DNA of 31,925 bases, taken from a virus. Taxonomy: Duplodnaviria > Heunggongvirae > Uroviricota > Caudoviricetes. The stretch's first letter is position 1, and each line of letters starts with the position of its first letter. Of the stretch, positions 6,901 through 31,925 are shown piece after piece. The stretch spans positions 1 through 31,925 of the IMG/VR virus record IMGVR_UViG_2917881069_000003; one strand, given 5' to 3'. A model generated the notes under the pieces. It worked only from the letters and a program-made list of their open reading frames with translations, was not told the origin of the DNA and made no database searches. The position numbers were made by a program, and so were the translations under genes.

Positions 6901-7133
6901 CCGTTTAACTCCGTGGTTAATGGGTGCAACTATTTTCTGTTGTGCAAAGCATGAGACGCTATTTGACCTGGATGGTCAGTGTATGAAACAACAGATAAAG
7001 GAAAGGTGGGCAACTTGCCCGCCTCTATTTATTGCGGTATTCCCGGCCATTCAGGATTTGTCGCAGCTCATAATTACCTGCAAAGAAACAAAGAAAAGAT
7101 GAAAATACAAACTGTCTAGTACAAAGAAATCCA

Positions 7134-7358
7134 TCAGACTTCCAACACCCCATACACGTGCCCCCACCACGGTATGCTGCTCCGCTTCCCTTTGCGGATA
7201 TTTTCTATCCATCGACATTCAGTCAGGATATGCACGTGCGCGATGAAGAATGTACACACGACTATTGCCCTGTAAGCCCAGTTCCCGGTAAGAATAGCAA
7301 CCAGCATCTGCGCTGCTACAGCACAAAGCGAGTGTATATTTGGGGGAATATCCATCAT
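7134..7358 (-). CDS. Hypothetical small protein (74 aa) with hydrophobic segments, in the Z/fun-position island
   Basis: ORF with tandem ATG start and AAGAG-like RBS (short spacer); product has a long hydrophobic stretch (LCAVAAQMLVAILTGNWAYRAIVVCTFFIA). No recognisable family; could be non-coding. Confidence 0.25.
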   Translation of the reverse strand: MMDIPPNIHSLCAVAAQMLVAILTGNWAYRAIVVCTFFIAHVHILTECRWIENIRKGKRSSIPWWGHVYGVLEV

Positions 7359-7370
7359 AAACTCTTCGAC

Positions 7371-7395
7371 GAAACCACGCTGTGGTTTCTCTTGT
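7371..7395 (+). terminator. Candidate hairpin (8-bp stem gaaaccac/gtggtttc, 3-nt loop) followed by tctcttgtt
   Basis: Read directly from sequence; moderate U-tract only on the + strand. Confidence 0.3.
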
Positions 7396-7862
7396 TATCA
7401 AACCGAGCGGCATTATCACTAGGTTTACTAAATTGCCAGCTTCACTGTGAATGATATGCATGATAGAATCAGAGAATTAAATTATACAGAATTTAATCAA
7501 TTCCGCGTTTTATGCCCGTTGCTTCCACGGGCTCTTTTTAAAAAACCATCTATAATAAATAATTGCATTCACTTTTATTCCAATACAGAATAGAATATGA
7601 AATCATCAATTTGCACCATTAATTTTCAAATCTTCCCCGCTTTCGAGTAAATGCGGTTTTTTTATATGAGCACAACTTCACATTAACTATTTTTATACTT
7701 ATAATTTGCTTCGCTTAAAAATATTCAAAATGTACGCCAATAGATTTAATTATGTTGAACTTGTCACCAGCGAAACAATCACCACGCAAACAATCCCTCA
7801 TGTTAGTTATACTGTAATGCGTTGCAGTATGATGTACAGATGACTTCATTAAATCATGTCAC

Positions 7863-7911
7863 AATGTTCAGATATAATGCTTCATGTTATGAAGGTAGCG
7901 TTCTGAACATT
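7863..7911. promoter_or_regulatory. 10-bp inverted repeat (aatgttcaga ... tctgaacatt, arms about 29 bp apart) 30-80 bp upstream of the glycosyltransferase-like gene
   Basis: Read directly from sequence; sits in a roughly 480-bp very AT-rich leader (7460-7940). Possible operator or regulator-binding site. Confidence 0.3.
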
Positions 7912-7942
7912 CATAAACATTGTTAACGTTAGAGGTTGCATA

Positions 7943-9232
7943 ATGAAAACCGATATCACTGCCATGTCTGAAAATATAGTGGAATTCTTTGAACAAACAA
8001 CACTGCATGATTACATCAAAAAAACATGGCTATACAATGAAAATTGCTTCGTTATTGATTTCGAATACAAAGGCGTGAAATTTGCATTAGATTTCACAGC
8101 CAGCCAACCAGGTGTAAACGTGGATTTTGTTCTACGAAATAATTACTCTTTTTATACTATAAAAGGCAATACTAAAAAAGAAAACATTTCATCTTCTGCT
8201 ATTTTAACAGCAGCCCTGCAAGCTTCTCTTCTAAAAATCACAACGGTAATTAATGAAATTAATTCTATTTATCCCTTTGATGTCTCAGTTATTATTCCGG
8301 TTCACAACCGAGAAACCCTTATTCTCGAATGCATTAAATCTTTAAACAATCAGACTATAGATAAAAATTGTTTTGAAGTTATTTTCATTGATGACTGTTC
8401 CACTGACAGGAGCATTGCCGCCATTGAATATAACATTTCGAGAGAAATAAATTATCGTATTATCCGTAGAGAAGTTGGTTCAGGAAATGCATCAGCGCCG
8501 CGAAATGAGGGAATAAAATCCGCAAAAGGTCGTTATGTGTTTTTCTTAGATTCTGATGATTCCATTCACTCTGACTTACTGTCCGATGGCATTCAGATGG
8601 CTTATAAAAATAATAGTGACATTGTATATTTCAAGCAGGTTTCCTCTACAGGAAGAGGGGTTCCCGTACGCCCATTTAAGGCAGACACAAATAAAGCGGA
8701 CATTATAAAAAACCATCTTTTCAGATCATTAAAAATCTTCAAGCTCTTTAAAAAAGAGTTACTAATCAATAATAACATCTTATTTAACCCATCAATTTCA
8801 GTCTATGAGGACATGCTTTTTTCTTGCCAAGCTCTAACTGTAGCTAATACGATATCTATACTGGCAAGAAAAGGCTACTACTCTCTGAATCGCCATGAAG
8901 AACCACATCTATCTAAAACATCTTTCTCCATTAAACAAAGAGTCTTAGTATTACAAACAGGTTTGATTTATATCTTATCAAGTAATAAAAATGAAGCAGA
9001 AATAGTAAAAATGTTTAATGCGTGGTTGGTTATTTGCGTTGAACACCTGGCATCCATATTATCCAAAAAAAGTTTAACAACTAATGAGAAATCTCATATT
9101 TTCAACTTGATACATAAATCATTCTTACCATATACAGGGTTTGTAAATGAGCCCCAAATATATCCCGCACAAAGAGAGCTGGTCAGTTGTTTAATCTGTG
9201 GAGATTATTCTTCTTTTTGCGAAAAAATATAA
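7943..9232 (+). CDS. Family-2 (GT-A fold) glycosyltransferase-like protein with unrecognised N- and C-terminal domains (429 aa)
   Basis: ATG with AGAGG RBS 7 nt upstream. GT2 motifs seen in translation: VSVIIPVHN, FIDDCSTD, SAPRNEG, FFLDSDD (DXD at nt 8549-8560), YED. Visibly AT-rich relative to the phage backbone and on the opposite strand to both flanking late operons. Confidence 0.8.
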   Translation: MKTDITAMSENIVEFFEQTTLHDYIKKTWLYNENCFVIDFEYKGVKFALDFTASQPGVNVDFVLRNNYSFYTIKGNTKKENISSSAILTAALQASLLKITTVINEINSIYPFDVSVIIPVHNRETLILECIKSLNNQTIDKNCFEVIFIDDCSTDRSIAAIEYNISREINYRIIRREVGSGNASAPRNEGIKSAKGRYVFFLDSDDSIHSDLLSDGIQMAYKNNSDIVYFKQVSSTGRGVPVRPFKADTNKADIIKNHLFRSLKIFKLFKKELLINNNILFNPSISVYEDMLFSCQALTVANTISILARKGYYSLNRHEEPHLSKTSFSIKQRVLVLQTGLIYILSSNKNEAEIVKMFNAWLVICVEHLASILSKKSLTTNEKSHIFNLIHKSFLPYTGFVNEPQIYPAQRELVSCLICGDYSSFCEKI

Positions 9233-9278
9233 AGAACACTTAGCTACAGATACTCCTCACTTTGTATCTGACGCATTT

Positions 9279-9310
9279 ACCCCTCACTCTAAATTAAGGG
9301 GGAGGGGTTT
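9279..9310 (+). terminator. Weak candidate terminator hairpin downstream of the glycosyltransferase-like gene
   Basis: cccctc ... gagggg stem followed by gtttcat; imperfect, long loop. Confidence 0.25.
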
Positions 9311-9454
9311 CATAAAAATAATTATCTGATGTTATTTTTATGTGTCATCACGTCTTTTTTAACTCCAGTTGTTACGGGGAGGACAGTGACTCGTATCAAC
9401 TAAAGTTTGATCTGTAGATAACACTATTTTAAGCAGATACTCATTAAGGCTTGT

Positions 9455-9892
9455 TTATTCTGAAGTCTCCAACTTCATCAAACGACGATTTAAGTCAACA
9501 AAACGTTCCATTAACAAATCCACCTGGCTGACAACAGCACGTAGACACCACCAGAGAAGCTCCTCTTTCCGGAAGCGATAACGGCTTCCAGCTTCGGTTG
9601 CAGGGCGAACAAGAACCCTTTCCGCCTGTCGGGTAAGCACACGGGTTGTCCCGCTCAACAGCTCCCCTTCATCCGAATAAATCGCTGGCTGAACCGGAAT
9701 ATCTTCATACTCTTCCGGTATATCTTCGTACTGTGCCTCCTCCGCTTCCCACGAATCCAGACAAAATGCGCTGTATTTCCGCCAGTCCAGACCGTGTTTC
9801 TCCATCACGGCTATCGCGGCCTGGACTGTCGGCCCGGCGTGCAGACGCGCGTCCTCGCCCTCCTCCTCAATTCTCTGTAACCAGCGCCACAC
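9455..9892 (-). CDS. Hypothetical protein (up to 145 aa) directly downstream of tail fibre H; possible tail fibre assembly/chaperone of a non-P2-G type
   Basis: Occupies the position of P2 G but shows no resemblance to P2 gpG as I recall it; acidic, EE/EY-rich. The ORF-track start is a GTG with a poor RBS; the first ATG is 29 codons in (9805), so the start is uncertain. Confidence 0.45.
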   Translation of the reverse strand: MWRWLQRIEEEGEDARLHAGPTVQAAIAVMEKHGLDWRKYSAFCLDSWEAEEAQYEDIPEEYEDIPVQPAIYSDEGELLSGTTRVLTRQAERVLVRPATEAGSRYRFRKEELLWWCLRAVVSQVDLLMERFVDLNRRLMKLETSE

Positions 9893-9960
9893 CCCCGGAA
9901 GCCGTGCTATTTCTGCAAATGCCGCGTTTTCGGCTGCCGTCGCATCGCGCGGTGTATCCT

Positions 9961-12312
9961 TTACGTCGCATCCGACACAACGGTCGGCGAGTTGCAGAGA
10001 TACACGCTCCGGAACGCTTTGTTGGGCGCACCCAGGTCGCTGGTATTGTTAACCGATGGCCGGAATGCGCCGTTAATATCTGTATCCATCTGCATGAATG
10101 CAGTGCCGTCACTACGGGCTGCAATTACATAAGCGTCAGCAGAATCGTCATAAATACCCAGATTCCCGGCTGTTGATACCTGGAAAGCTCCCGCCTTCAG
10201 CGTGGTGCTGATGGCCATGCGCTTCTGGGTTTCGTCATCCGATTTAATATTCACGCCCTGCAGGTATGCCACATTCCAGCGATTTGGCGATGACCCCAGA
10301 TTCATTGCCTTGTCCTGGTCGGGATGAAATGACGGCGAGACCGGACTCAATAATACAGACCAGGTCTCACTGCCATCGGTACAATAAAGCCTTGTGCGTC
10401 CCGCCGACTGAGTATCGTTCATTGAGTAAAGGTTAATCCCGCCACCGCTCAACAAATCCACGTCAGCGCGTATTTCCAGACAATCGTGCACGGCGTTCAG
10501 GCGGTGTTTCCACTGAACGTAGCGGCCTGTGTATTCTCCGGTTCGGAACGCATCCCCGAACAAACGAAAAACAGCAGCAGAAGTGTCTGTATCCGGAGCC
10601 TCCTTTCTGACCTCAAATAACGGGCGATGCGAGCGCAGATTCTGCTCATAGGCTGCCACCTGGAAGTCTTCATTGGGTGACAGGGCTATATTTACAGCAT
10701 TAGGACTCAGAAAAAGGCTGGCATGGCTGTCAGGAAACGCCACGCCGGAGTCCACCAGATAGCCTGTGCCGTCGTAAGCCTCCACGGAAACCACAGCTTT
10801 GCTGCGTTTTGTCGCCACGCCACACGTATAAGACTTCGTGGCATCATATTTCGTTGCAGCCGCCGTTCCATATGCTGTAGGCGTCCAGTAAGATGGATTC
10901 ACCGGAGAACGGCCAGAAAAATTTGTTGCACGTGCTGCAAAGTATGCCCCCTCAAAAGAAACCACATCGGCTGTCTGACACCAGAAATCCATATCGAGCA
11001 GATACAGTTTTCCGTTATGGAGAGCCAGCCCTTCGGCTTCCTGCAAAACGGGATACCCCAGCTCTGCATTCCCCAGCATTTTCTGGCGACCATACCTGGC
11101 ACGAACGCCATCCACATTGAACTGTCTGACAACTTCGCCCGTTGACAGGTTATATACAACAATGCGGTGAGTCAGAAATACGCCTGTATAACCGTAATAA
11201 GCAAACAGATAATGACCATCGCTGGCCATCCCCTGAAATGCCTGCGACACCATTGGCTGGGTGGACAGATAAATCCGGTGTTTAAACGTCAGAGAGGCGC
11301 GATCGAAAACATAAACTGTGCGGCGATCATCCCTGTTGTAATGAAGATGGACGGCCTCATCACCTGACTGAACAATTAACAGGCTTCCGTCTGCCGACAA
11401 TGCCACCGTTATAATTTCATCCCCGGTAAAAAAGTCAGAGGTGAAAATCTCCGTACGGGTGACATCTGTCAGACTGGTGTCAGCCCCATTCCAGTTGATG
11501 ATATTCACACCCTTGCCGTCAGCGGTCGGGGTATACAGCATCACGCGACCGTCTTCACATACAGCCCCGATACTCTGGTGACCAATATCAGCGAAAACGG
11601 GAGAAAACGAAATGACCGTCGGGTTTTCGTTTTCTCCGTCAGGGTTAAATGTCGTTTCAACAATCCTTACGCCACCCGATACAGGCTGATGCAGAAACAT
11701 TCGGGTTCCCTGCGGCGTATCACAGATACAGAACCCCTGGCTCATCTTATCCGCGCCGTCAAAAATCCCGGCGTAGTCAATATCGTGGACAACTTTATGC
11801 TGAAGAACCACATCATCAATGACAGTACGATGAAGACTGGATATGGCTTTGTCGACGTAATCCTGCGTCGCCATCACTGTGCTGGCATCAATACTCAGCT
11901 CAACGGACGCCACGTTACTGACAATAATAACCATGCGGCAGGTCTGCGCACGTCCGGAACCTTCAGCCAGTTCAGGCTTATAGCTTTCCGCCATGTTGGC
12001 GACCGCAATCAGTGTTCCGGCATCGTCATACAGACCAAGCTCACGCATCCAGAAGCCGCCCACATCTGGCGGTACAACCAGTTCAGCCACAATATAGTTT
12101 TTATTCTTATTATCCACGCTGACTTTATTCAGGGCATGACGCCAGACCTCATGCACCAGCTTCGTCTGACCGGCATCCGGCACCGGCAATTTGCCATTAC
12201 CGTCACCCACGGCCATTGCAGACAGGTTTACTTTTTTCCCGCCGGGGACAGTGGCGGCTGCCAGCTTTGCGGCTCCGGCAGTAGTGATAACGGTTTTAAA
12301 TTTCGTGCTCAT
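9961..12312 (-). CDS. H: Tail fibre protein H (783 aa); conserved P2-like N-terminal part (about 160 aa) with a divergent distal region
   Basis: N-terminus MSTKFKTVITTAGAAKLAAAT... matches P2 gpH; the remainder is unrelated to the P2 gpH distal region as I recall it, and the protein is longer than P2's 669 aa. Confidence 0.85.
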   Translation of the reverse strand: MSTKFKTVITTAGAAKLAAATVPGGKKVNLSAMAVGDGNGKLPVPDAGQTKLVHEVWRHALNKVSVDNKNKNYIVAELVVPPDVGGFWMRELGLYDDAGTLIAVANMAESYKPELAEGSGRAQTCRMVIIVSNVASVELSIDASTVMATQDYVDKAISSLHRTVIDDVVLQHKVVHDIDYAGIFDGADKMSQGFCICDTPQGTRMFLHQPVSGGVRIVETTFNPDGENENPTVISFSPVFADIGHQSIGAVCEDGRVMLYTPTADGKGVNIINWNGADTSLTDVTRTEIFTSDFFTGDEIITVALSADGSLLIVQSGDEAVHLHYNRDDRRTVYVFDRASLTFKHRIYLSTQPMVSQAFQGMASDGHYLFAYYGYTGVFLTHRIVVYNLSTGEVVRQFNVDGVRARYGRQKMLGNAELGYPVLQEAEGLALHNGKLYLLDMDFWCQTADVVSFEGAYFAARATNFSGRSPVNPSYWTPTAYGTAAATKYDATKSYTCGVATKRSKAVVSVEAYDGTGYLVDSGVAFPDSHASLFLSPNAVNIALSPNEDFQVAAYEQNLRSHRPLFEVRKEAPDTDTSAAVFRLFGDAFRTGEYTGRYVQWKHRLNAVHDCLEIRADVDLLSGGGINLYSMNDTQSAGRTRLYCTDGSETWSVLLSPVSPSFHPDQDKAMNLGSSPNRWNVAYLQGVNIKSDDETQKRMAISTTLKAGAFQVSTAGNLGIYDDSADAYVIAARSDGTAFMQMDTDINGAFRPSVNNTSDLGAPNKAFRSVYLCNSPTVVSDAT

Positions 12313-12322
12313 TGTTTCTCAC

Positions 12323-12853
12323 TTATCCGGGATAAACAGTAATAACATCACCATCACAGACCACACCGCCTGTATACAGACAGCCGGGAATGTCCTGGAT
12401 AATGTTCAGACCGATAAGGTGGCGACTTGCGGGTTTGGCATCGGCAATAAGCCGTTCCATTTCCAGATACATCTCCTCCGTGATGCCGCTTTCCAGCACA
12501 CCGATATCAAGGCGAAAGGTTCCGGGCGGGTCGTTTGTCTCCCACCATTCCTTTACGTTAATGAGATAGCCGAGCGGCTCCACCACGCGTCGGATTGCGC
12601 CTATAGTGCCCTTATGACAGTGAATGAAATAGGCATCGCGGATAACGGCGCGTTTTGTCGCTTCCGGCCATTTTTCATCCCACCTGTCGACCGAAAACGC
12701 CCACGCCAGCCACGGCAGCAGATTTGCCGGGCAGGTGTCCGGGTTCCACAGTTCACGAATACTGACCGGCGTTTTTTCAATTTCCGCACAGGCTTTTGCG
12801 GCGGCGACTTCAAGCGGTGATGAGCCGGTCGGCAGCAGTCGCGAATCACTCAT
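12323..12853 (-). CDS. I: Baseplate protein I (176 aa)
   Basis: Length and position (J-I-H) as in P2. Confidence 0.88.
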   Translation of the reverse strand: MSDSRLLPTGSSPLEVAAAKACAEIEKTPVSIRELWNPDTCPANLLPWLAWAFSVDRWDEKWPEATKRAVIRDAYFIHCHKGTIGAIRRVVEPLGYLINVKEWWETNDPPGTFRLDIGVLESGITEEMYLEMERLIADAKPASRHLIGLNIIQDIPGCLYTGGVVCDGDVITVYPG

Positions 12854-13755
12854 CCGAGCCTCCGGTCACGACGCTGTATTCGGTGCAGAAAGACGCCTGC
12901 GTACTGTTGAGCACAATGTCGGCCAGTGGTGCGGCCAGCTCGACACGCTGCACGCCTTCCACATGCAAAGCGGCATAAATGGCAGACAGACGGATGTCAC
13001 GCCCCAGCCGGTGCTGTGCCGTGATGTACGCTTCCAGTTTTTTCACGGCAGCAGCGCGGATGGGTTCGCTTTCGGGACCAGGGTAAAGGTAAAGCGTGGC
13101 GTTTATCTGGTATTCAACAATGGCGGCAGACTGCACGGTCACGCGGTCGGCCACCGGCCTGACGTCCTCACCATTAAGGGCGTTGCGCACCACCGCCAGC
13201 AGGTCTTCGGATGCCACACCGTTATTTTCACGTGACAGCACGGAGATGGTGACACAGGCAGGAGACGGACTGGTGACAGAGATATCCGCGACACGCCCGT
13301 CGGCACTGCGACCATGATACTGATAGGCTCCCACCGACCCGGCGACGCTTAAACCTTCAAACGCCTGCTGAATACGCAGACGATAATCGGTGTCAGACTC
13401 CATCACTGCCGGTGTCGGCGGGGATGGTCGAATCATCTGCCGGGGTGATAGTCAGGCGCGTGGTGTTGTAATTGGCACCAATCACATCAAGGTCATTACC
13501 GGCGGCACAGGCCAGCATCACCGCCCGTGCGGCCTCATTCACACGCTGACGCCAGATAAGCTCACGATAAGCATTTTCCTCCAGCAGTTTGACGAGAGGC
13601 TCAGATTCCAGCGTCAGGGTACGGGCGACCGCCTCCTGCTGGTCTTCCGGGTAAAGGGAAATCAGTGTCGCCTTGCGTTCGGCAAGAATGGTTTCAAAGT
13701 CCAGCTCCTCGACCACATCCGGTGCGGGTAGCTGGTTCAGGTCGATAATCGGCAT
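12846..13755 (-). pseudogene. J: Baseplate wedge protein J, interrupted by a 1-nt insertion in a G/C run
   Basis: Two overlapping ORFs in different frames (13393-13755 and 12846-13436) together cover the P2 gpJ sequence. 910 nt is one base more than 303 codons (P2 J is 302 aa). The break is at gggg 13420-13423, where the recalled P2 sequence DDSTIPPTPAVMESD needs one fewer G/C. Confidence 0.7.
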
Positions 13756-24370: not shown

Positions 24371-25237
24371 ATGAAAAAAGTATATGAACTAACCAGTGAA
24401 GAAGCACTGTCATATTTTCTTCGCCATGATTCCTACACAACCTTAGAATTGCCAGCATATATTAATTTCGCTACGTTATTAAATAATATTAATTCGTCTA
24501 TCCATAACAAAAAAATTAAAATTGAACCAACCGCCAAAGACCTGATGGGTAAAAATATCAATTATGAGGTGCTTGTCAGTAAAGATGGACTATATAGCTG
24601 GCGCAGGATAACACTTATCAATCCTCTTTATTATGTCTACTTCTGTAGAAAAATCACAGCACCAACAACTTGGGAAATCATAACAGAAAAATTCAAATCT
24701 TTTGAATCAAACGACCTTTTTACATGTTCAAGCATCCCCGTCAGGAAAGACGACTCATCAAACATTGCGGCGTCAGTAATGAATTGGTGGGGAGATTTTG
24801 AACAAAAAAGCCTTGCCCTTGCTCTTGAATATGAATTCATGTTCAGCACTGATATCTCAAACTTCTACCCATCAATATATACTCATAGTTTTGAATGGGT
24901 ATTCATATCAAAAGAAGAGGCAAAGAAGAAAAAAGACAAAAACAACCCTGGCCGATTAATTGACAACCACATTCAAATGATGATGAACAATCAGACAAAT
25001 GGTATTCCACTCGGCAGCACATTGATGGATACTTTTGCTGAGCTTATCCTGGGTAAAATCGATATAGAATTAAGAAAAAAAACTAACGAATTCAAGATTA
25101 CAAACTACAAGGTTGTACGTTACCGTGATGATTACCGGATTTTTTCTAATAGTAAAGATGATTTAGACATAATATCCAAATGTTTAGTCAACGTGTTAGG
25201 TGATTTTGGTTTAGATCTAAAACTCAAAAAAAACTGA
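24371..25237 (+). CDS. Reverse transcriptase domain ORF of an Abi-P2/AbiK-like RT (288 aa as sequenced; N-terminal part of a roughly 515-codon gene)
   Basis: RT catalytic motifs in the translation: STDISNFYPSI (motif A, nt 24845-24877), GIPLGSTLMDTFAELIL (motif B, 25001-25051), VRYRDDYRIF (YxDD motif C, 25115-25144). The ORF ends at a TGA immediately after an A8 run. Confidence 0.75.
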   Translation: MKKVYELTSEEALSYFLRHDSYTTLELPAYINFATLLNNINSSIHNKKIKIEPTAKDLMGKNINYEVLVSKDGLYSWRRITLINPLYYVYFCRKITAPTTWEIITEKFKSFESNDLFTCSSIPVRKDDSSNIAASVMNWWGDFEQKSLALALEYEFMFSTDISNFYPSIYTHSFEWVFISKEEAKKKKDKNNPGRLIDNHIQMMMNNQTNGIPLGSTLMDTFAELILGKIDIELRKKTNEFKITNYKVVRYRDDYRIFSNSKDDLDIISKCLVNVLGDFGLDLKLKKN

Positions 25238-25253
25238 GCTATATGAAGATATT

Positions 25254-25919
25254 GTGCTTCACTCCTTGAAACAAGCCAAAAAAGACTATATCAAAGAAAA
25301 AAGACACAAGTCACTCCAGAAAATGCTCTACTCAATATATTTACTCTCACTAAAACATCCAAACTCGAAAACAATCGTTAGATATCTCAATGATTTTCTT
25401 AGAAAATTATTTAGAATGAATACAATTACAGATAACGGTCACCAAATAGATGCCATGCTTGGTATTATTTCAAGCATCATGGCAAAAAACCCTACAACGT
25501 ACCCAGCAGGAACTGCCATTTTCTCAAAACTCCTCAGTTTTCTTTATACTGACGACACATATCCTAAATTCAAAAAACTAGAACAACTCCATAAAAAACT
25601 TGCTAAGCAACCCAATACAGAAATGCTTGATATATGGTTTCAGCGAATTCAAGCAAAAATAAACCCAGAGTGGGAAAGCTCTTATAAGTCAGCTCTATGC
25701 GTCCGTGTAAATGATGAACTCACGAAAAAGAAAACAGTTTCTGAAAATAATTTATGGAATATTGACTGGATTCCAGGAAAAGAAACGAACAGAAACAAAG
25801 CCCAAATATTATCATTACTAACGAAAACAAAAATTGTTGATGCAGAAAAATTTGAGAAAATGGATAATGACATAATACCCGAAGAAGTTGATTTATTCTT
25901 TAAAGAATACAGCAATTAA
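25254..25919 (+). CDS. C-terminal alpha-helical domain ORF of the same RT (221 aa as sequenced, in another frame; ORF-track start is a GTG)
   Basis: The frame is open from 25221. Removing one A from the A8 run at 25226-25233 joins it to the upstream ORF as ...LDLKLKKTELYEDIVLHSLKQ... Lys/Leu-rich helical composition typical of the C-terminal domains of Abi-type RTs. Confidence 0.6.
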   Translation: MLHSLKQAKKDYIKEKRHKSLQKMLYSIYLLSLKHPNSKTIVRYLNDFLRKLFRMNTITDNGHQIDAMLGIISSIMAKNPTTYPAGTAIFSKLLSFLYTDDTYPKFKKLEQLHKKLAKQPNTEMLDIWFQRIQAKINPEWESSYKSALCVRVNDELTKKKTVSENNLWNIDWIPGKETNRNKAQILSLLTKTKIVDAEKFEKMDNDIIPEEVDLFFKEYSN

Positions 25920-30061: not shown

Positions 30062-30391
30062 TTAAGCCGCACGGCCATGTCTTGATTTGCTATAACTAAT
30101 GCGATTTTTCCAGTCGTGCCATTCTGATGGAGCTTCATCGACTAGCTGTGCTGCGTACTTGTCCCACTCACGACGATTAATCCATAACTCAGCATGACCT
30201 CCCGGCTTTAATGGGTCTGCCATGTAAAAGGCAGGCAGCTTGCCTGCTTTCGCCATTTCAGCTACAGCGCGAGGCGTCTTACCGATGTAAAGAGCAAAAC
30301 CCTCTTTCGAGAGTAGATCCGACGGTGCGGCAGCGAGCTTGATGTCACATTTTTTTACTTTTTGTGAGATCAGATACTTTTTCTCCAACAT
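30062..30391 (-). CDS. cox: Cox-like excisionase/early repressor (HTH DNA-binding, 109 aa as ORF)
   Basis: First gene of the leftward early operon, divergent from C; contains ...GKTPRAVAEMAKAGKLP..., resembling the P2 Cox helix-turn-helix region. Start not verified. Confidence 0.5.
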   Translation of the reverse strand: MLEKKYLISQKVKKCDIKLAAAPSDLLSKEGFALYIGKTPRAVAEMAKAGKLPAFYMADPLKPGGHAELWINRREWDKYAAQLVDEAPSEWHDWKNRISYSKSRHGRAA

Positions 30392-30928: not shown

Positions 30929-31925
30929 ATGTCTATTAAAAAGCTCGATGATGGTCGTTATGAAGTGGACGTCAGACCGCAGGGTGCAGATGGAAAACGT
31001 ATCAGGCGGAAATTTAAAACTAAGGGTGAAGCTCAAGCATTCGAACGTCATGTCCTGGTTAACTACCACAACAAAGAGTGGTTGGAGAAGCCAGCCGACC
31101 GCCGAACTCTTACAGAGTTGTTAGGCAGATGGTGGATATATCACGGAAAATCACATGAGCGTGGAGATATTGAACGGGGGGCGTTTGACGACAATAATCG
31201 CCAAATTTGCAGAAATGGGAGTGTCCAGAGCTGACCAGCTAACAAAGAAAACGATAACTGATTATCGCGTTGTAATGATGAACGATGGTCTTAAACCAGC
31301 CAGCGTAAATCGGCATCTGGCAATAATGAGCGGGATGTTCACCAAGTTAATTGACGCCGGTGAATACCACTCTCACAACCCGTTCCGTGAGGTTAAGCGG
31401 TTACGTGAAGCTGTTACGGAAATGGCTTTTTTGTCCAGTGAAGAGATTACGCGGCTGTTATCCATGCTTGATGGTGATGAATTAAATGCAACTCTGGTCT
31501 GCCTTTCTACTGGTGGACGCTGGAGTGAAGTGTCAAATTTAAAAGCTGAACACATCATTAACCAGATGGTTACGTTTATGAAAACTAAAAACGGAAAGCG
31601 CAGGACAATTCCCGTGTCGCAGGACCTGATTAAACGGATCAAGACCAAAAATTCAGGCAGGCTTTTTAATGCCAGTTACTACAAAGTGCGCAACGCTCTC
31701 AGGGAAGTAAAACCCGATTTACCTGACGGACAGGCAGTGCATGTTTTGAGGCATACATTTGCCACACATTTTATAATGAATGGAGGTAACATAATCACAT
31801 TGCAGCGCATCCTGGGTCATTCTAACATTCAGCAAACTATGACCTACGCACACTTTGCACCGGATTTCTTACAAGATGCAGTGACTCTTAACCCGGTGTC
31901 AGGAATGTCCATAATGCGTCCATAA
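30929..31925 (+). pseudogene. int: Tyrosine integrase (P2 Int family), interrupted by a 1-nt indel in a G6 run
   Basis: Two ORFs in different frames (30929-31234 and 31155-31925). N-terminus MSIKKLDDGRYEVDVRPQG...; C-terminal catalytic region with HVLRHTFATH...LGHSNIQQTMTYAHF (R, H-x-x-R, Y). Removing one G from gggggg at 31176-31181 restores a single reading frame of about 331 aa. Confidence 0.75.

What the first reader, a model, noticed from the sequence alone, without database searches (positions are those of the whole stretch)
9455..12312. Host-range module swap: tail fibre H with a replaced distal region and a non-G-type downstream gene
The first 160 or so residues of H match P2 gpH, after which the sequence diverges completely and the protein is longer than P2's 669 aa. 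The divergent part is rich in Gly, Asp, Thr and aromatic residues and lacks the repeats I recall from P2. The downstream gene (9455-9892) is an acidic protein with no resemblance to P2 gpG. This is a mosaic breakpoint inside H, so the receptor specificity and assembly chaperone differ from P2.
Basis: partly seen in the sequence, partly recalled or inferred. Interest (0 to 1): 0.5.

Follow-up and report, generated by a model that had tools for sequence, protein, structure and literature searches.

The report
One frameshifted tailspike gene, not two
The "tail fibre plus odd downstream gene" is a single, already catalogued mosaic prophage tailspike gene (P2-type anchor, beta-propeller receptor-binding part, built-in self-cleaving folding chaperone) that a one-base deletion cuts in two in this sequence, so it is ordinary.

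Summary
Both ORFs exist as described: 9961..12312(-) at 783 aa and 9455..9892(-) at 145 aa. Residues 1-158 are 82% identical to P2 gpH, and nothing beyond them resembles P2 H or G.

The downstream ORF is not a gene. It is the out-of-frame C-terminal part of the same tailspike gene. In 87 complete E. coli genomes (including REL606), and in phage Pollock's homologous spike, the region is one CDS of about 950 aa. It ends in a Peptidase_S74 intramolecular chaperone. The window lacks one T (ACG TTA AAG becomes ACG TAA), which places a stop 3 codons after the conserved self-cleavage serine, S780. Adding the T back restores a 952-aa ORF.

The source assembly (GCA_004745185.1, probably Escherichia sp. 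E2661) carries many homopolymer indel errors. Even so, the H deletion is reproduced in a second, cleaner assembly. It is therefore probably a real inactivating mutation (about 0.7) rather than an artefact (about 0.2).

The mosaic reading holds; the "non-G-type downstream gene" does not. This is a known kind of gene and of low interest. A hypervariable (CCAG)n tract in the adjacent glycosyltransferase gene is the more interesting thing nearby.

The parts
11851..12312 (-). Codons 1-154 of the tailspike gene: the P2 gpH-type N-terminal baseplate-attachment domain
   Evidence: PF12571 matches residues 1-151 at E 6e-58. Nucleotide identity to P2 is 90% and to other P2-like phages 97-98%, ending at 11852. 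Protein identity to P2 gpH 1-158 is 82%.
11821..11850 (-). Module junction (codons 155-164), where unrelated N-terminal anchors join the shared distal module
   Evidence: In the alignment of homologues, the P2-H, PF18668, T7-fibre (PF03906) and PF12219 anchors all give way to the shared 'IDD..LQHKVVHD' module at this point. Pollock homology starts at residue 161.
10738..11820 (-). Codons ~165-525: predicted five-bladed beta-propeller, the presumed receptor-binding (possibly enzymatic) domain
9976..10737 (-). Codons 526-779: beta-rich C-terminal stalk that ends at the predicted maturation site (V779|S780)
   Evidence: The stretch is conserved with Pollock gp75 and other homologues. The monomer model has low to medium confidence here, as expected for an interdigitated trimer.
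9961..9975 (-). S780-D-A-T followed by the premature TAA (9961-9963). One T is missing between 9963 and 9964.
   Evidence: The window reads GACG-TAAAGG where CFSAN061763, REL606 and CP163843 read GACGTTAAAGG. None of 87 complete E. coli genomes shares the deletion. S780 aligns with the scissile Ser1264 of T5 pb1, which is Ala in 4uw8. PF13884 starts at residue 780 in the intact relative.
9455..9961 (-). Remainder of the Peptidase_S74 intramolecular chaperone (intact-protein residues 785-952), now out of frame.
   Evidence: This frame translates as ..VKDTPRDATAAENAAFAEIARLPGVWRWLQ.., which matches intact P0055. PHROG 19921 positions 808-952 match, as does PF13884. PDB matches are 7y5s at E 8.5e-13 and 4uw8 at E 2e-10. 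Re-inserting one T gives a 952-aa ORF that differs at 6 residues from P0055.
7029..7060 (-). Relic of the last 32 nt of P2 gene G, marking the other end of the replaced cassette
   Evidence: The stretch is 94% identical to P2 15243-15274, the 3' end of G.
7061..9454 (.). Low-GC (about 33%) moron island between the spike gene and FI, in the P2 G/Z-fun position. It carries a family-2 glycosyltransferase gene at 7943..9232(+).
   Evidence: GC content is 0.33-0.34 against ~0.55 in the flanks. The gene matches PF00535 at E 5e-29 and PHROG 'GtrB-like O-antigen conversion'. The island accompanies the spike gene in all four related prophages inspected.

Best explanation
The region holds one gene, not two. 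It is a modular tailspike gene of a P2-like prophage in GenBank assembly GCA_004745185.1, probably Escherichia sp. E2661.

The intact 952-aa protein has four parts:
- residues 1-154: a P2 gpH-type domain that plugs the trimer into the baseplate;
- residues ~165-525: a five-bladed beta-propeller that recognises, and perhaps cleaves, a surface polysaccharide;
- residues 526-779: a beta-rich stalk;
- residues 780-952: a Peptidase_S74 intramolecular chaperone.

The chaperone drives trimer folding and then removes itself by autoproteolysis at V779|S780, using a Ser780/Lys785 dyad. This built-in chaperone replaces P2's separate gpG, whose gene was deleted in the swap apart from its last 32 nt.

In this window one T is missing (ACG TTA AAG becomes ACG TAA). 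The reading frame therefore stops after residue 783, and the rest of the chaperone is left as an out-of-frame, start-less ORF. The most likely reading is a real, recent inactivating mutation. The 783-aa product lacks its folding chaperone and should fail to form functional spikes.

Shown here: the gene structure, the homologies, the indel and its position. Inferred: the fold (from a model), the cleavage chemistry (by homology with T5 pb1 and K1F endoNF), the loss of function, and the polysaccharide receptor.
For: One gene:
- PHROG 19921 spans both ORFs.
- The region is a single 2859-nt CDS in CFSAN061763 and REL606.
- All 87 complete E. coli genomes that match the 121-nt junction carry the extra T.
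- Pollock gp75 (946 aa, from an isolated lytic phage) is 77% identical and colinear over residues 161-949.
- Putting the T back gives a 952-aa ORF with 6 substitutions relative to P0055.

Chaperone identity:
- PF13884 covers residues 780-842 of the intact protein.
- PDB sequence hits are 7y5s, 4uw8, 9vvr, 3gud, 6eu4 and 3gw6.
- S780 and K785 align with T5 pb1 Ser1264 and Lys1269 (PMC4690869).

No independent downstream gene:
- There is no in-frame start before the GTG at 9892, which has no spaced Shine-Dalgarno sequence.
- Elsewhere the 145-aa product arises only from IS disruption of the gene or at contig ends.

Mosaic structure.

Fold.

Deletion probably real:
- The Logan assembly of SRR6148326 (L005) is identical to the window over 5.6 kb, including the H deletion.
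- That same contig does not carry the neighbouring J homopolymer insertion.
- The split products of cox and AbiP2 are also not on record in that assembly.
Against: - The GenBank assembly behind the window is indel-prone. It has 1-nt homopolymer indels in J, cox, int and AbiP2. Host genes dmsA and ycaD in the flank are also affected. An artefact therefore cannot be excluded without the reads.
- I could not establish whether SRR6148326 is an independent data set.
- The stop falls within 4 codons of the maturation site. Post hoc that is roughly a 1% coincidence, and I cannot explain it.
- Folding failure without the chaperone is inferred from other S74 proteins, not tested here.
- The structure is a monomer model from a shallow alignment (mean pLDDT 71; below 50 after model residue ~500).
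Confidence: 0.7

Rival explanations
1. The architecture is the same single gene, but the missing T is a sequencing or assembly error. The strain's real gene would then be intact and the prophage's tailspike functional.
For: The window and its host flank carry at least seven uncompensated 1-nt indels. Most are in homopolymers:
- J, C3 to C4 at 13423;
- cox, T6 to T7 at 30350;
- int, G5 to G6 at 31176;
- AbiP2, at the A8 run 25226-25233;
- host dmsA;
- host ycaD, T5 to T6.

The J insertion is contradicted by a second assembly. None of 87 E. coli genomes has the H deletion. The out-of-frame part shows almost no decay, with 1 substitution in ~170 codons.
Against: - The H deletion is present in the Logan assembly of SRR6148326, on the very contig where the J error is absent.
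- TT to T is not a long-homopolymer context, unlike the other indels.
- The same split int product also occurs in unrelated samples, so not every indel in the window is an error.
Confidence: 0.22
2. One reading: H is a complete 783-aa fibre, and 9455..9892 is an independent, non-G-type assembly chaperone gene acquired together with it.
For: The ORF is open for 145 codons. It does belong to a chaperone family, with PF13884 at 23.6 bits against a cut-off of 22. gpG is absent.
Against: - The ORF is in a different frame, with no ATG and no spaced RBS. The mechanical GTG corresponds to V808 in the middle of the domain.
- The frame stays open upstream and reads through intact-protein residues 785-807.
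- In 87 of 87 E. coli genomes and in Pollock the region is fused in one CDS.
- A single-base repair restores the fusion.
- The scissile Ser lies in ORF1 and the catalytic Lys in the other frame.
Confidence: 0.03
3. A functional split or recoding. Either the stop, lying 3 codons past the cleavage site, yields a 'pre-matured' spike whose folding is helped in trans by a re-initiated chaperone fragment, or ribosomes shift frame (-1 or +2) to make some full-length protein.
For: The stop lies strikingly close to the natural maturation site (S780; stop after T783). The downstream frame is undamaged.
Against: - There is no slippery heptamer and no A or T run at GCG ACG TAA AGG.
- The nearest in-frame start is 69 nt downstream, lacks an RBS, and would omit residues 780-807, including Lys785.
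- The variant is private to one strain among more than 87.
- In the solved T5 pb1 structure the chaperone is a contiguous part of the same polypeptide until it is cleaved off (PMC4690869). That S74 chaperones cannot work in trans is my recollection of the endosialidase literature; I did not verify it here.
Confidence: 0.03

Closest known systems
Intact orthologue in P2-like prophages of E. coli (e.g. REL606 ECB_RS10545 / WP_000104717.1; CFSAN061763 WP_116319195.1; PHROG 19921 'tail spike protein')
   Same: It shares 98% nucleotide identity over the whole gene. The neighbours are the same (I upstream, GT2 island and FI downstream), and so is the domain order PF12571 ... PF13884.
   Different: Those copies are one 952-aa CDS. 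The window copy lacks one T and is split into 783 aa plus an out-of-frame remainder.
Tail spike gp75 of N4-like podophage Pollock (AIX12434.1, 946 aa)
   Same: It is 77% identical at the amino-acid level over residues 161-949 (85% at the nucleotide level over 1.17 kb). This covers the propeller, the stalk and the S74 chaperone in one polypeptide.
   Different: Its N-terminal anchor is PF18668 (TSP1/Gp66 type) rather than the P2 gpH type. It belongs to a virulent podovirus rather than a temperate myovirus, and it has no adjacent glycosyltransferase.
Phage P2 gpH + gpG (tail fibre and separate Tfa-type assembly chaperone)
   Same: The first ~158 residues (82% identical) and the gene position after V-W-J-I are shared.
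   Different: The whole distal fibre is replaced. gpG is deleted apart from 32 nt, and the chaperone function is supplied in cis by an S74 domain.
Peptidase_S74 intramolecular-chaperone proteins (K1F endosialidase 3gw6; T5 L-shaped fibre pb1 4uw8; Klebsiella phage Kp7 fibre 7y5s; phi29 gp12 3gud)
   Same: The C-terminal domain is homologous (E 8.5e-13 to 0.5). It has the conserved Ser and a Lys five residues later at the domain start.
   Different: The upstream receptor-binding domains are unrelated. Here the domain is disconnected from the spike by the frameshift.
Staphylococcal phage receptor-binding proteins phi11 Gp45 (5efv), 80alpha RBP (6v8i) and P68 fibre (6iab)
   Different: Sequence identity is only 10-13% and no sequence-level match is detectable. 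The hosts are Gram-positive with teichoic-acid receptors, and these proteins have no S74 chaperone.

Membership tests
P2 gpH-type tail fibre | N-terminal tail-collar fibre domain (PF12571) and gene position after V-W-J-I | tested here: met
   PF12571 scores 195 bits against a cut-off of 23 over residues 1-151. Identity to P2 gpH 1-158 is 82%. Gene I (PF09684) lies immediately upstream.
P2 gpH-type tail fibre | Distal fibre region homologous to P2 H | tested here: not met
   BLASTP of residues >158 against P2 gpH gives E >= 0.2. Nucleotide homology ends at 11852.
P2 gpH-type tail fibre | Separate gpG/Tfa assembly chaperone gene directly downstream | tested here: not met
   tblastn of gpG against the whole window gives a best E of 0.12. 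Only a 32-nt relic of the 3' end of G remains, at 7029-7060.
Peptidase_S74 intramolecular-chaperone (self-cleaving) tailspikes and fibres | C-terminal S74 domain recognisable by sequence | tested here: met
   PF13884 scores 38 bits (cut-off 22) over residues 780-842 of the intact relative and 23.6 bits on the window fragment. PDB hits include 7y5s at E 8.5e-13 and 4uw8 at E 2e-10.
Peptidase_S74 intramolecular-chaperone (self-cleaving) tailspikes and fibres | Scissile Ser at the domain start with the activating Lys five residues later | tested here: met
   The motif VV-S780-DATL-K785 aligns with T5 pb1 S1264 (Ala in 4uw8) and K1269. In the window, K785 lies beyond the frameshift.
Peptidase_S74 intramolecular-chaperone (self-cleaving) tailspikes and fibres | Chaperone domain translated in cis with the spike it folds | tested here: not met
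   In the window a TAA follows codon 783 and the rest of the domain is in another frame. The feature is met in 87 of 87 E. coli relatives and in Pollock.
Peptidase_S74 intramolecular-chaperone (self-cleaving) tailspikes and fibres | Trimerisation-dependent autoproteolytic release of the domain | not testable with these tools
   This needs expression of the repaired and S780A proteins.
Five-bladed beta-propeller receptor-binding proteins (phi11 Gp45-like) | Five-bladed propeller platform in a trimeric RBP | tested here: met
Five-bladed beta-propeller receptor-binding proteins (phi11 Gp45-like) | Detectable sequence homology to Gp45 | tested here: not met
   phmmer against all PDB sequences finds no hit at E <= 1. 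Identity within the structural alignments is 10-13%.
   The only start is a GTG at 9892, directly abutting GGGG with no spacer. The ORF is separate elsewhere only after IS insertion (CP163843.1) or at contig ends.

The most novel reading that the evidence does not exclude
The stop lies 3 codons past the self-cleavage serine. The most novel reading is that this is not an accident but a natural 'pre-matured' tailspike: the 783-aa product would correspond almost exactly to the mature spike, and a re-initiated or trans-acting fragment of the S74 domain (or a host factor) would fold it. That would amount to an intramolecular chaperone caught turning into a separate gene.
Probability: 0.03. Interest if true: 0.5.

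Novelty: already known. Interest (0 to 1): 0.12.

Why it matters
The result corrects an annotation-level misreading. What looked like a new fibre/chaperone gene pair is a catalogued tailspike with a built-in chaperone, broken by one base.

It also gives a clean example of host-range cassette exchange. The same propeller-stalk-chaperone module sits behind P2-type, T7-type, TSP1/Gp66-type (PF18668, as in N4-like Pollock) and other anchors, and it joins them at one conserved junction.

Practically, it warns that this source assembly carries many homopolymer indels, so split genes in it should not be over-interpreted.

The propeller family has no Pfam model and no solved structure. That is a modest gap, not a surprise.

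Tried and rejected
- Single-sequence AlphaFold of the 783-aa ORF was useless (pLDDT 33). It was replaced by a run on a 13-sequence alignment.
- A sequence search of the 783-aa ORF against the PDB found nothing.
- NCBIfam has no model for the spike.
- A second word-indexed homologue search with a trimmed profile added only two proteins. The exhaustive representative search gave 137 clusters, and the ten sampled were mostly without Pfam domains.
- The 'P2' record OU784746 turned out to carry a non-canonical 919-aa H, so canonical AF063097 was used for breakpoint mapping instead.
- Programmed frameshifting and transcriptional slippage were considered and rejected. The site has no slippery heptamer or long homopolymer.
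- No intrinsic terminator was found directly after the spike gene.
- Literature searches found no description of this prophage spike in E. coli B or of the (CCAG)n tract. The one candidate paper did not contain the motif in its text.
- The Moo19/B2 esterase-spike paper mentions Pollock only for phylogeny.
- I could not confirm whether SRR6148326 is the read set of E2661, and I could not retrieve its contigs for int, cox or AbiP2.
Full report
**What is at the coordinates**

The window holds two minus-strand ORFs, 9961..12312 (783 aa, ATG) and 9455..9892 (145 aa, GTG). They lie after gene I (PF09684) and before a low-GC island (GC about 0.33 against about 0.55 in the flanks).

- Residues 1-151 match the P2 tail-collar fibre N-terminal family PF12571 (E 6e-58).
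- Residues 1-158 are 82% identical to P2 gpH, and nothing after that aligns with it (E >= 0.2).
- Nucleotide homology to canonical P2 and to about 40 P2-like phages ends at window 11852, which is codon ~154.
- The 145-aa ORF is acidic (net charge -10) and unlike gpG.
- No gpG homologue exists anywhere in the window.

**The downstream ORF is part of the same gene**

Several independent lines show this.
- PHROG 19921, a 952-position 'tail spike protein' profile, matches the 783-aa ORF at positions 1-783 and the 145-aa ORF at positions 808-952.
- The 145-aa ORF hits Pfam Peptidase_S74, the endosialidase-type intramolecular chaperone.
- Eighty-three complete E. coli genomes carry the whole region at about 98% identity. 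In CFSAN061763 and in E. coli B REL606 it is annotated as one 2859-nt CDS.
- Alignment shows the window lacks a single T. Relatives read ACG TTA AAG GAT (T-L-K-D) where the window reads ACG TAA.
- A 121-nt probe across the site matches 87 complete genomes. Every one has the extra base (best identity 121/122).
- The other reading frame continues upstream of the mechanical GTG and spells ..KDTPRDATAAENAAFAEIARLPGVWRWLQ.., exactly as in the intact protein.
- Re-inserting one T gives a 952-aa ORF with one terminal stop and only 6 substitutions relative to an E. coli protein (P0055).
- The tail spike gp75 of the isolated N4-like podophage Pollock is 77% identical and colinear from residue 161 to 949 as a single polypeptide.
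- The GTG at 9892 has no spaced Shine-Dalgarno sequence.
- The same 145-aa product appears elsewhere only where the gene is interrupted by IS elements (CP163843.1) or truncated by a contig end.

**Architecture and likely mechanism**

In the intact relative, PF12571 covers residues 1-151 and PF13884 covers 780-842, starting exactly at Ser780.

The reconstituted C-terminal 178 residues match solved S74-domain proteins by sequence: Kp7 fibre 7y5s (E 8.5e-13), T5 pb1 4uw8 (E 2e-10), and 9vvr, 3gud, 6eu4 and 3gw6.

Ser780 aligns with the position mutated to Ala in 4uw8, and Lys785 sits five residues later. In T5 pb1, Ser1264 is the scissile residue, the Thr1263-Ser1264 bond is cut, and Lys1269 activates the serine (PMC4690869). 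By homology, the mature spike would be residues 1-779, with the chaperone (780-952) released after trimer folding.

**The swap**

The shared module starts at a conserved junction (..IDD..LQHKVVHD..) behind quite different anchors:
- P2-H type, in this prophage and in a 1114-aa protein from an HP1/P2-like contig;
- T7 tail-fibre N-terminus, in the gp17 position of 40-kb T7-like contigs;
- TSP1/Gp66 type (PF18668), as in Pollock;
- PF12219.

An exhaustive search finds 137 50%-identity clusters containing the propeller (86 at E <= 1e-10). The ten sampled were 517-948-aa proteins, mostly without any Pfam domain.

On the far side, a 32-nt relic of the 3' end of P2 gene G survives at 7029-7060. The replaced cassette is therefore about 7061-11851. 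It comprises the distal spike, the in-cis chaperone, and a low-GC island with a family-2 glycosyltransferase (PHROG 'GtrB-like O-antigen conversion').

A receptor-modifying enzyme beside a polysaccharide-directed spike is the classic lysogenic-conversion arrangement. I infer, but have not shown, that it protects lysogens from superinfection by modifying the spike's receptor.

**Is the deletion real?**

The window is 100% identical to GenBank contig PDIG01000018.1 of assembly GCA_004745185.1. The 145-aa product is named as a protein of Escherichia sp. E2661, so this strain is the probable source.

That assembly is indel-prone. Compared with close relatives, the window has uncompensated 1-nt homopolymer changes at several sites:
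- J (C3 to C4 at 13423), which splits J into 120 + 196 aa;
- cox (T6 to T7 at 30350);
- int (G5 to G6 at 31176);
- the AbiP2 reverse-transcriptase defence gene, split next to an A8 run.

In the 8.5-kb host flank, dmsA and ycaD are frameshifted as well. This raises the prior for an artefact.

Against that, a Logan assembly of run SRR6148326 is identical to the window over 5,597 nt and contains the H deletion. Both the 783-aa and the 145-aa products are called there. The same contig has an intact 302-aa J. The split cox and AbiP2 products are on record only for the GenBank contig.

The H change is also TT to T, not a long-homopolymer change. I therefore put about 0.7 on a genuine recent mutation that makes this spike gene a pseudogene, and about 0.2 on an error. 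Either way the region is one gene.

The stop lies only 3 codons past the cleavage serine, which is a curious coincidence. There is no slippery site, no usable restart codon, and no second strain with this variant, so I give a functional split about 3%.

**Verdict**

- There is a real module swap inside H and a chaperone strategy different from P2's.
- The 'non-G-type downstream gene' is an artefact of a one-base frameshift in a tailspike gene that is common in E. coli prophages (83 of 5,426 complete genomes, including E. coli B) and already catalogued.
- Fibre and spike module exchange among unrelated phages is long established for P2 (my own knowledge of the P2 tail-fibre literature; not checked here).
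- The finding is therefore ordinary and of low interest.

**Side observation**

The adjacent glycosyltransferase gene deserves a look of its own. It carries a (CCAG)n tract with a widely varying copy number:
- 2 copies in the window;
- 7 in REL606 and CFSAN061763;
- 52 in CP163843.1.

The spans across 29 complete genomes imply roughly 4 to 80 more units than in the window. The tract length differs even among laboratory derivatives of one E. coli B stock. The copy number also changes the reading frame of the gene's 5' end. This looks like slipped-strand phase variation of a prophage surface-modification gene. I found no description of it in the literature searched.

Noticed in passing
window ~8097-8111 (within GT2 gene 7943..9232 +); L002, L001/L003, L006, L008; hits H110-H138: A (CCAG)n tetranucleotide tract sits at codons ~52-57 of the prophage glycosyltransferase gene and is hypervariable. 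It has 2 copies here, 7 in REL606 and CFSAN061763, at least 7 in a Logan contig, and 52 in CP163843.1. A 400-nt probe spans 416 to 733 nt across 29 complete E. coli genomes. The span differs even among lab derivatives of one E. coli B stock (524, 528 and 568 nt). Copy number changes the frame of the 5' end: one 429-aa ORF here, against a small upstream ORF plus a 318-370-aa GT elsewhere. This looks like slipped-strand phase variation. I found no description of it in the papers searched.
   Followed up: partly
window 13423 (gene J, ORFs 13393..13755 and 12846..13436, minus strand): Baseplate gene J is split into 120 + 196 aa by a 1-nt insertion (C3 to C4) relative to two relatives. The Logan assembly of SRR6148326 is otherwise identical over 5.6 kb and has an intact 302-aa J, so this insertion is probably an assembly error.
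   Followed up: yes
window 31176 (int, ORFs 30929..31234 and 31155..31925 +) and 30350 (cox, 30062..30391 -): The integrase is split into 101 + 256 aa by G5 to G6, and cox is N-terminally truncated by T6 to T7. The same 256-aa int fragment is also called in three unrelated Logan samples, so that variant may be real. The 109-aa cox product is on record only for this GenBank contig.
   Followed up: partly
window 24371..25237 and 25254..25919 (+), low-GC island between Q/cos and gene A: Two adjacent ORFs match the two halves of the AbiP2 defence reverse transcriptase (PADLOC DRT profile positions 4-286 and 296-487). They are one gene split by a frameshift next to an A8 run (25226-25233). Relatives at 91% identity carry a single 'RNA-directed DNA polymerase' CDS. 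This is the P2 old/tin moron hotspot; other relatives carry a PD-(D/E)XK nuclease or DprA cargo there instead.
   Followed up: partly
L020 1-8500 (host flank of the same GenBank contig, outside the window): Host genes dmsA and ycaD are each split by uncompensated 1-nt insertions relative to E. coli; the ycaD insertion is T5 to T6. The indel rate is similar to that inside the prophage. The assembly as a whole is therefore indel-prone, and split genes in it need read-level confirmation.
   Followed up: yes
window 7029..7060: A 32-nt relic of the 3' end of P2 gene G (94% identical) marks the right-hand junction of the replaced host-range cassette. A GC-rich hairpin lies next to it at 7004-7024.
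   Followed up: yes
L006 (CP163843.1), L003 (CFSAN061763), L002 (REL606): Relatives of this prophage are often defective in other ways. IS3-family and IS21 elements sit inside the same tailspike gene in CP163843.1. ISEc12 sits in the tape-measure gene of CFSAN061763. REL606 has large deletions, with partial portal, tube and D genes.
   Followed up: no
window 10070..11238 versus phage Pollock KM236242 54951-57791 (L017): A temperate P2-like myovirus prophage and a virulent N4-like podophage share 85% nucleotide identity over 1.17 kb of the spike gene. The identity within the gene is patchy. This points to fairly recent exchange of the receptor-binding module across phage families.
   Followed up: partly
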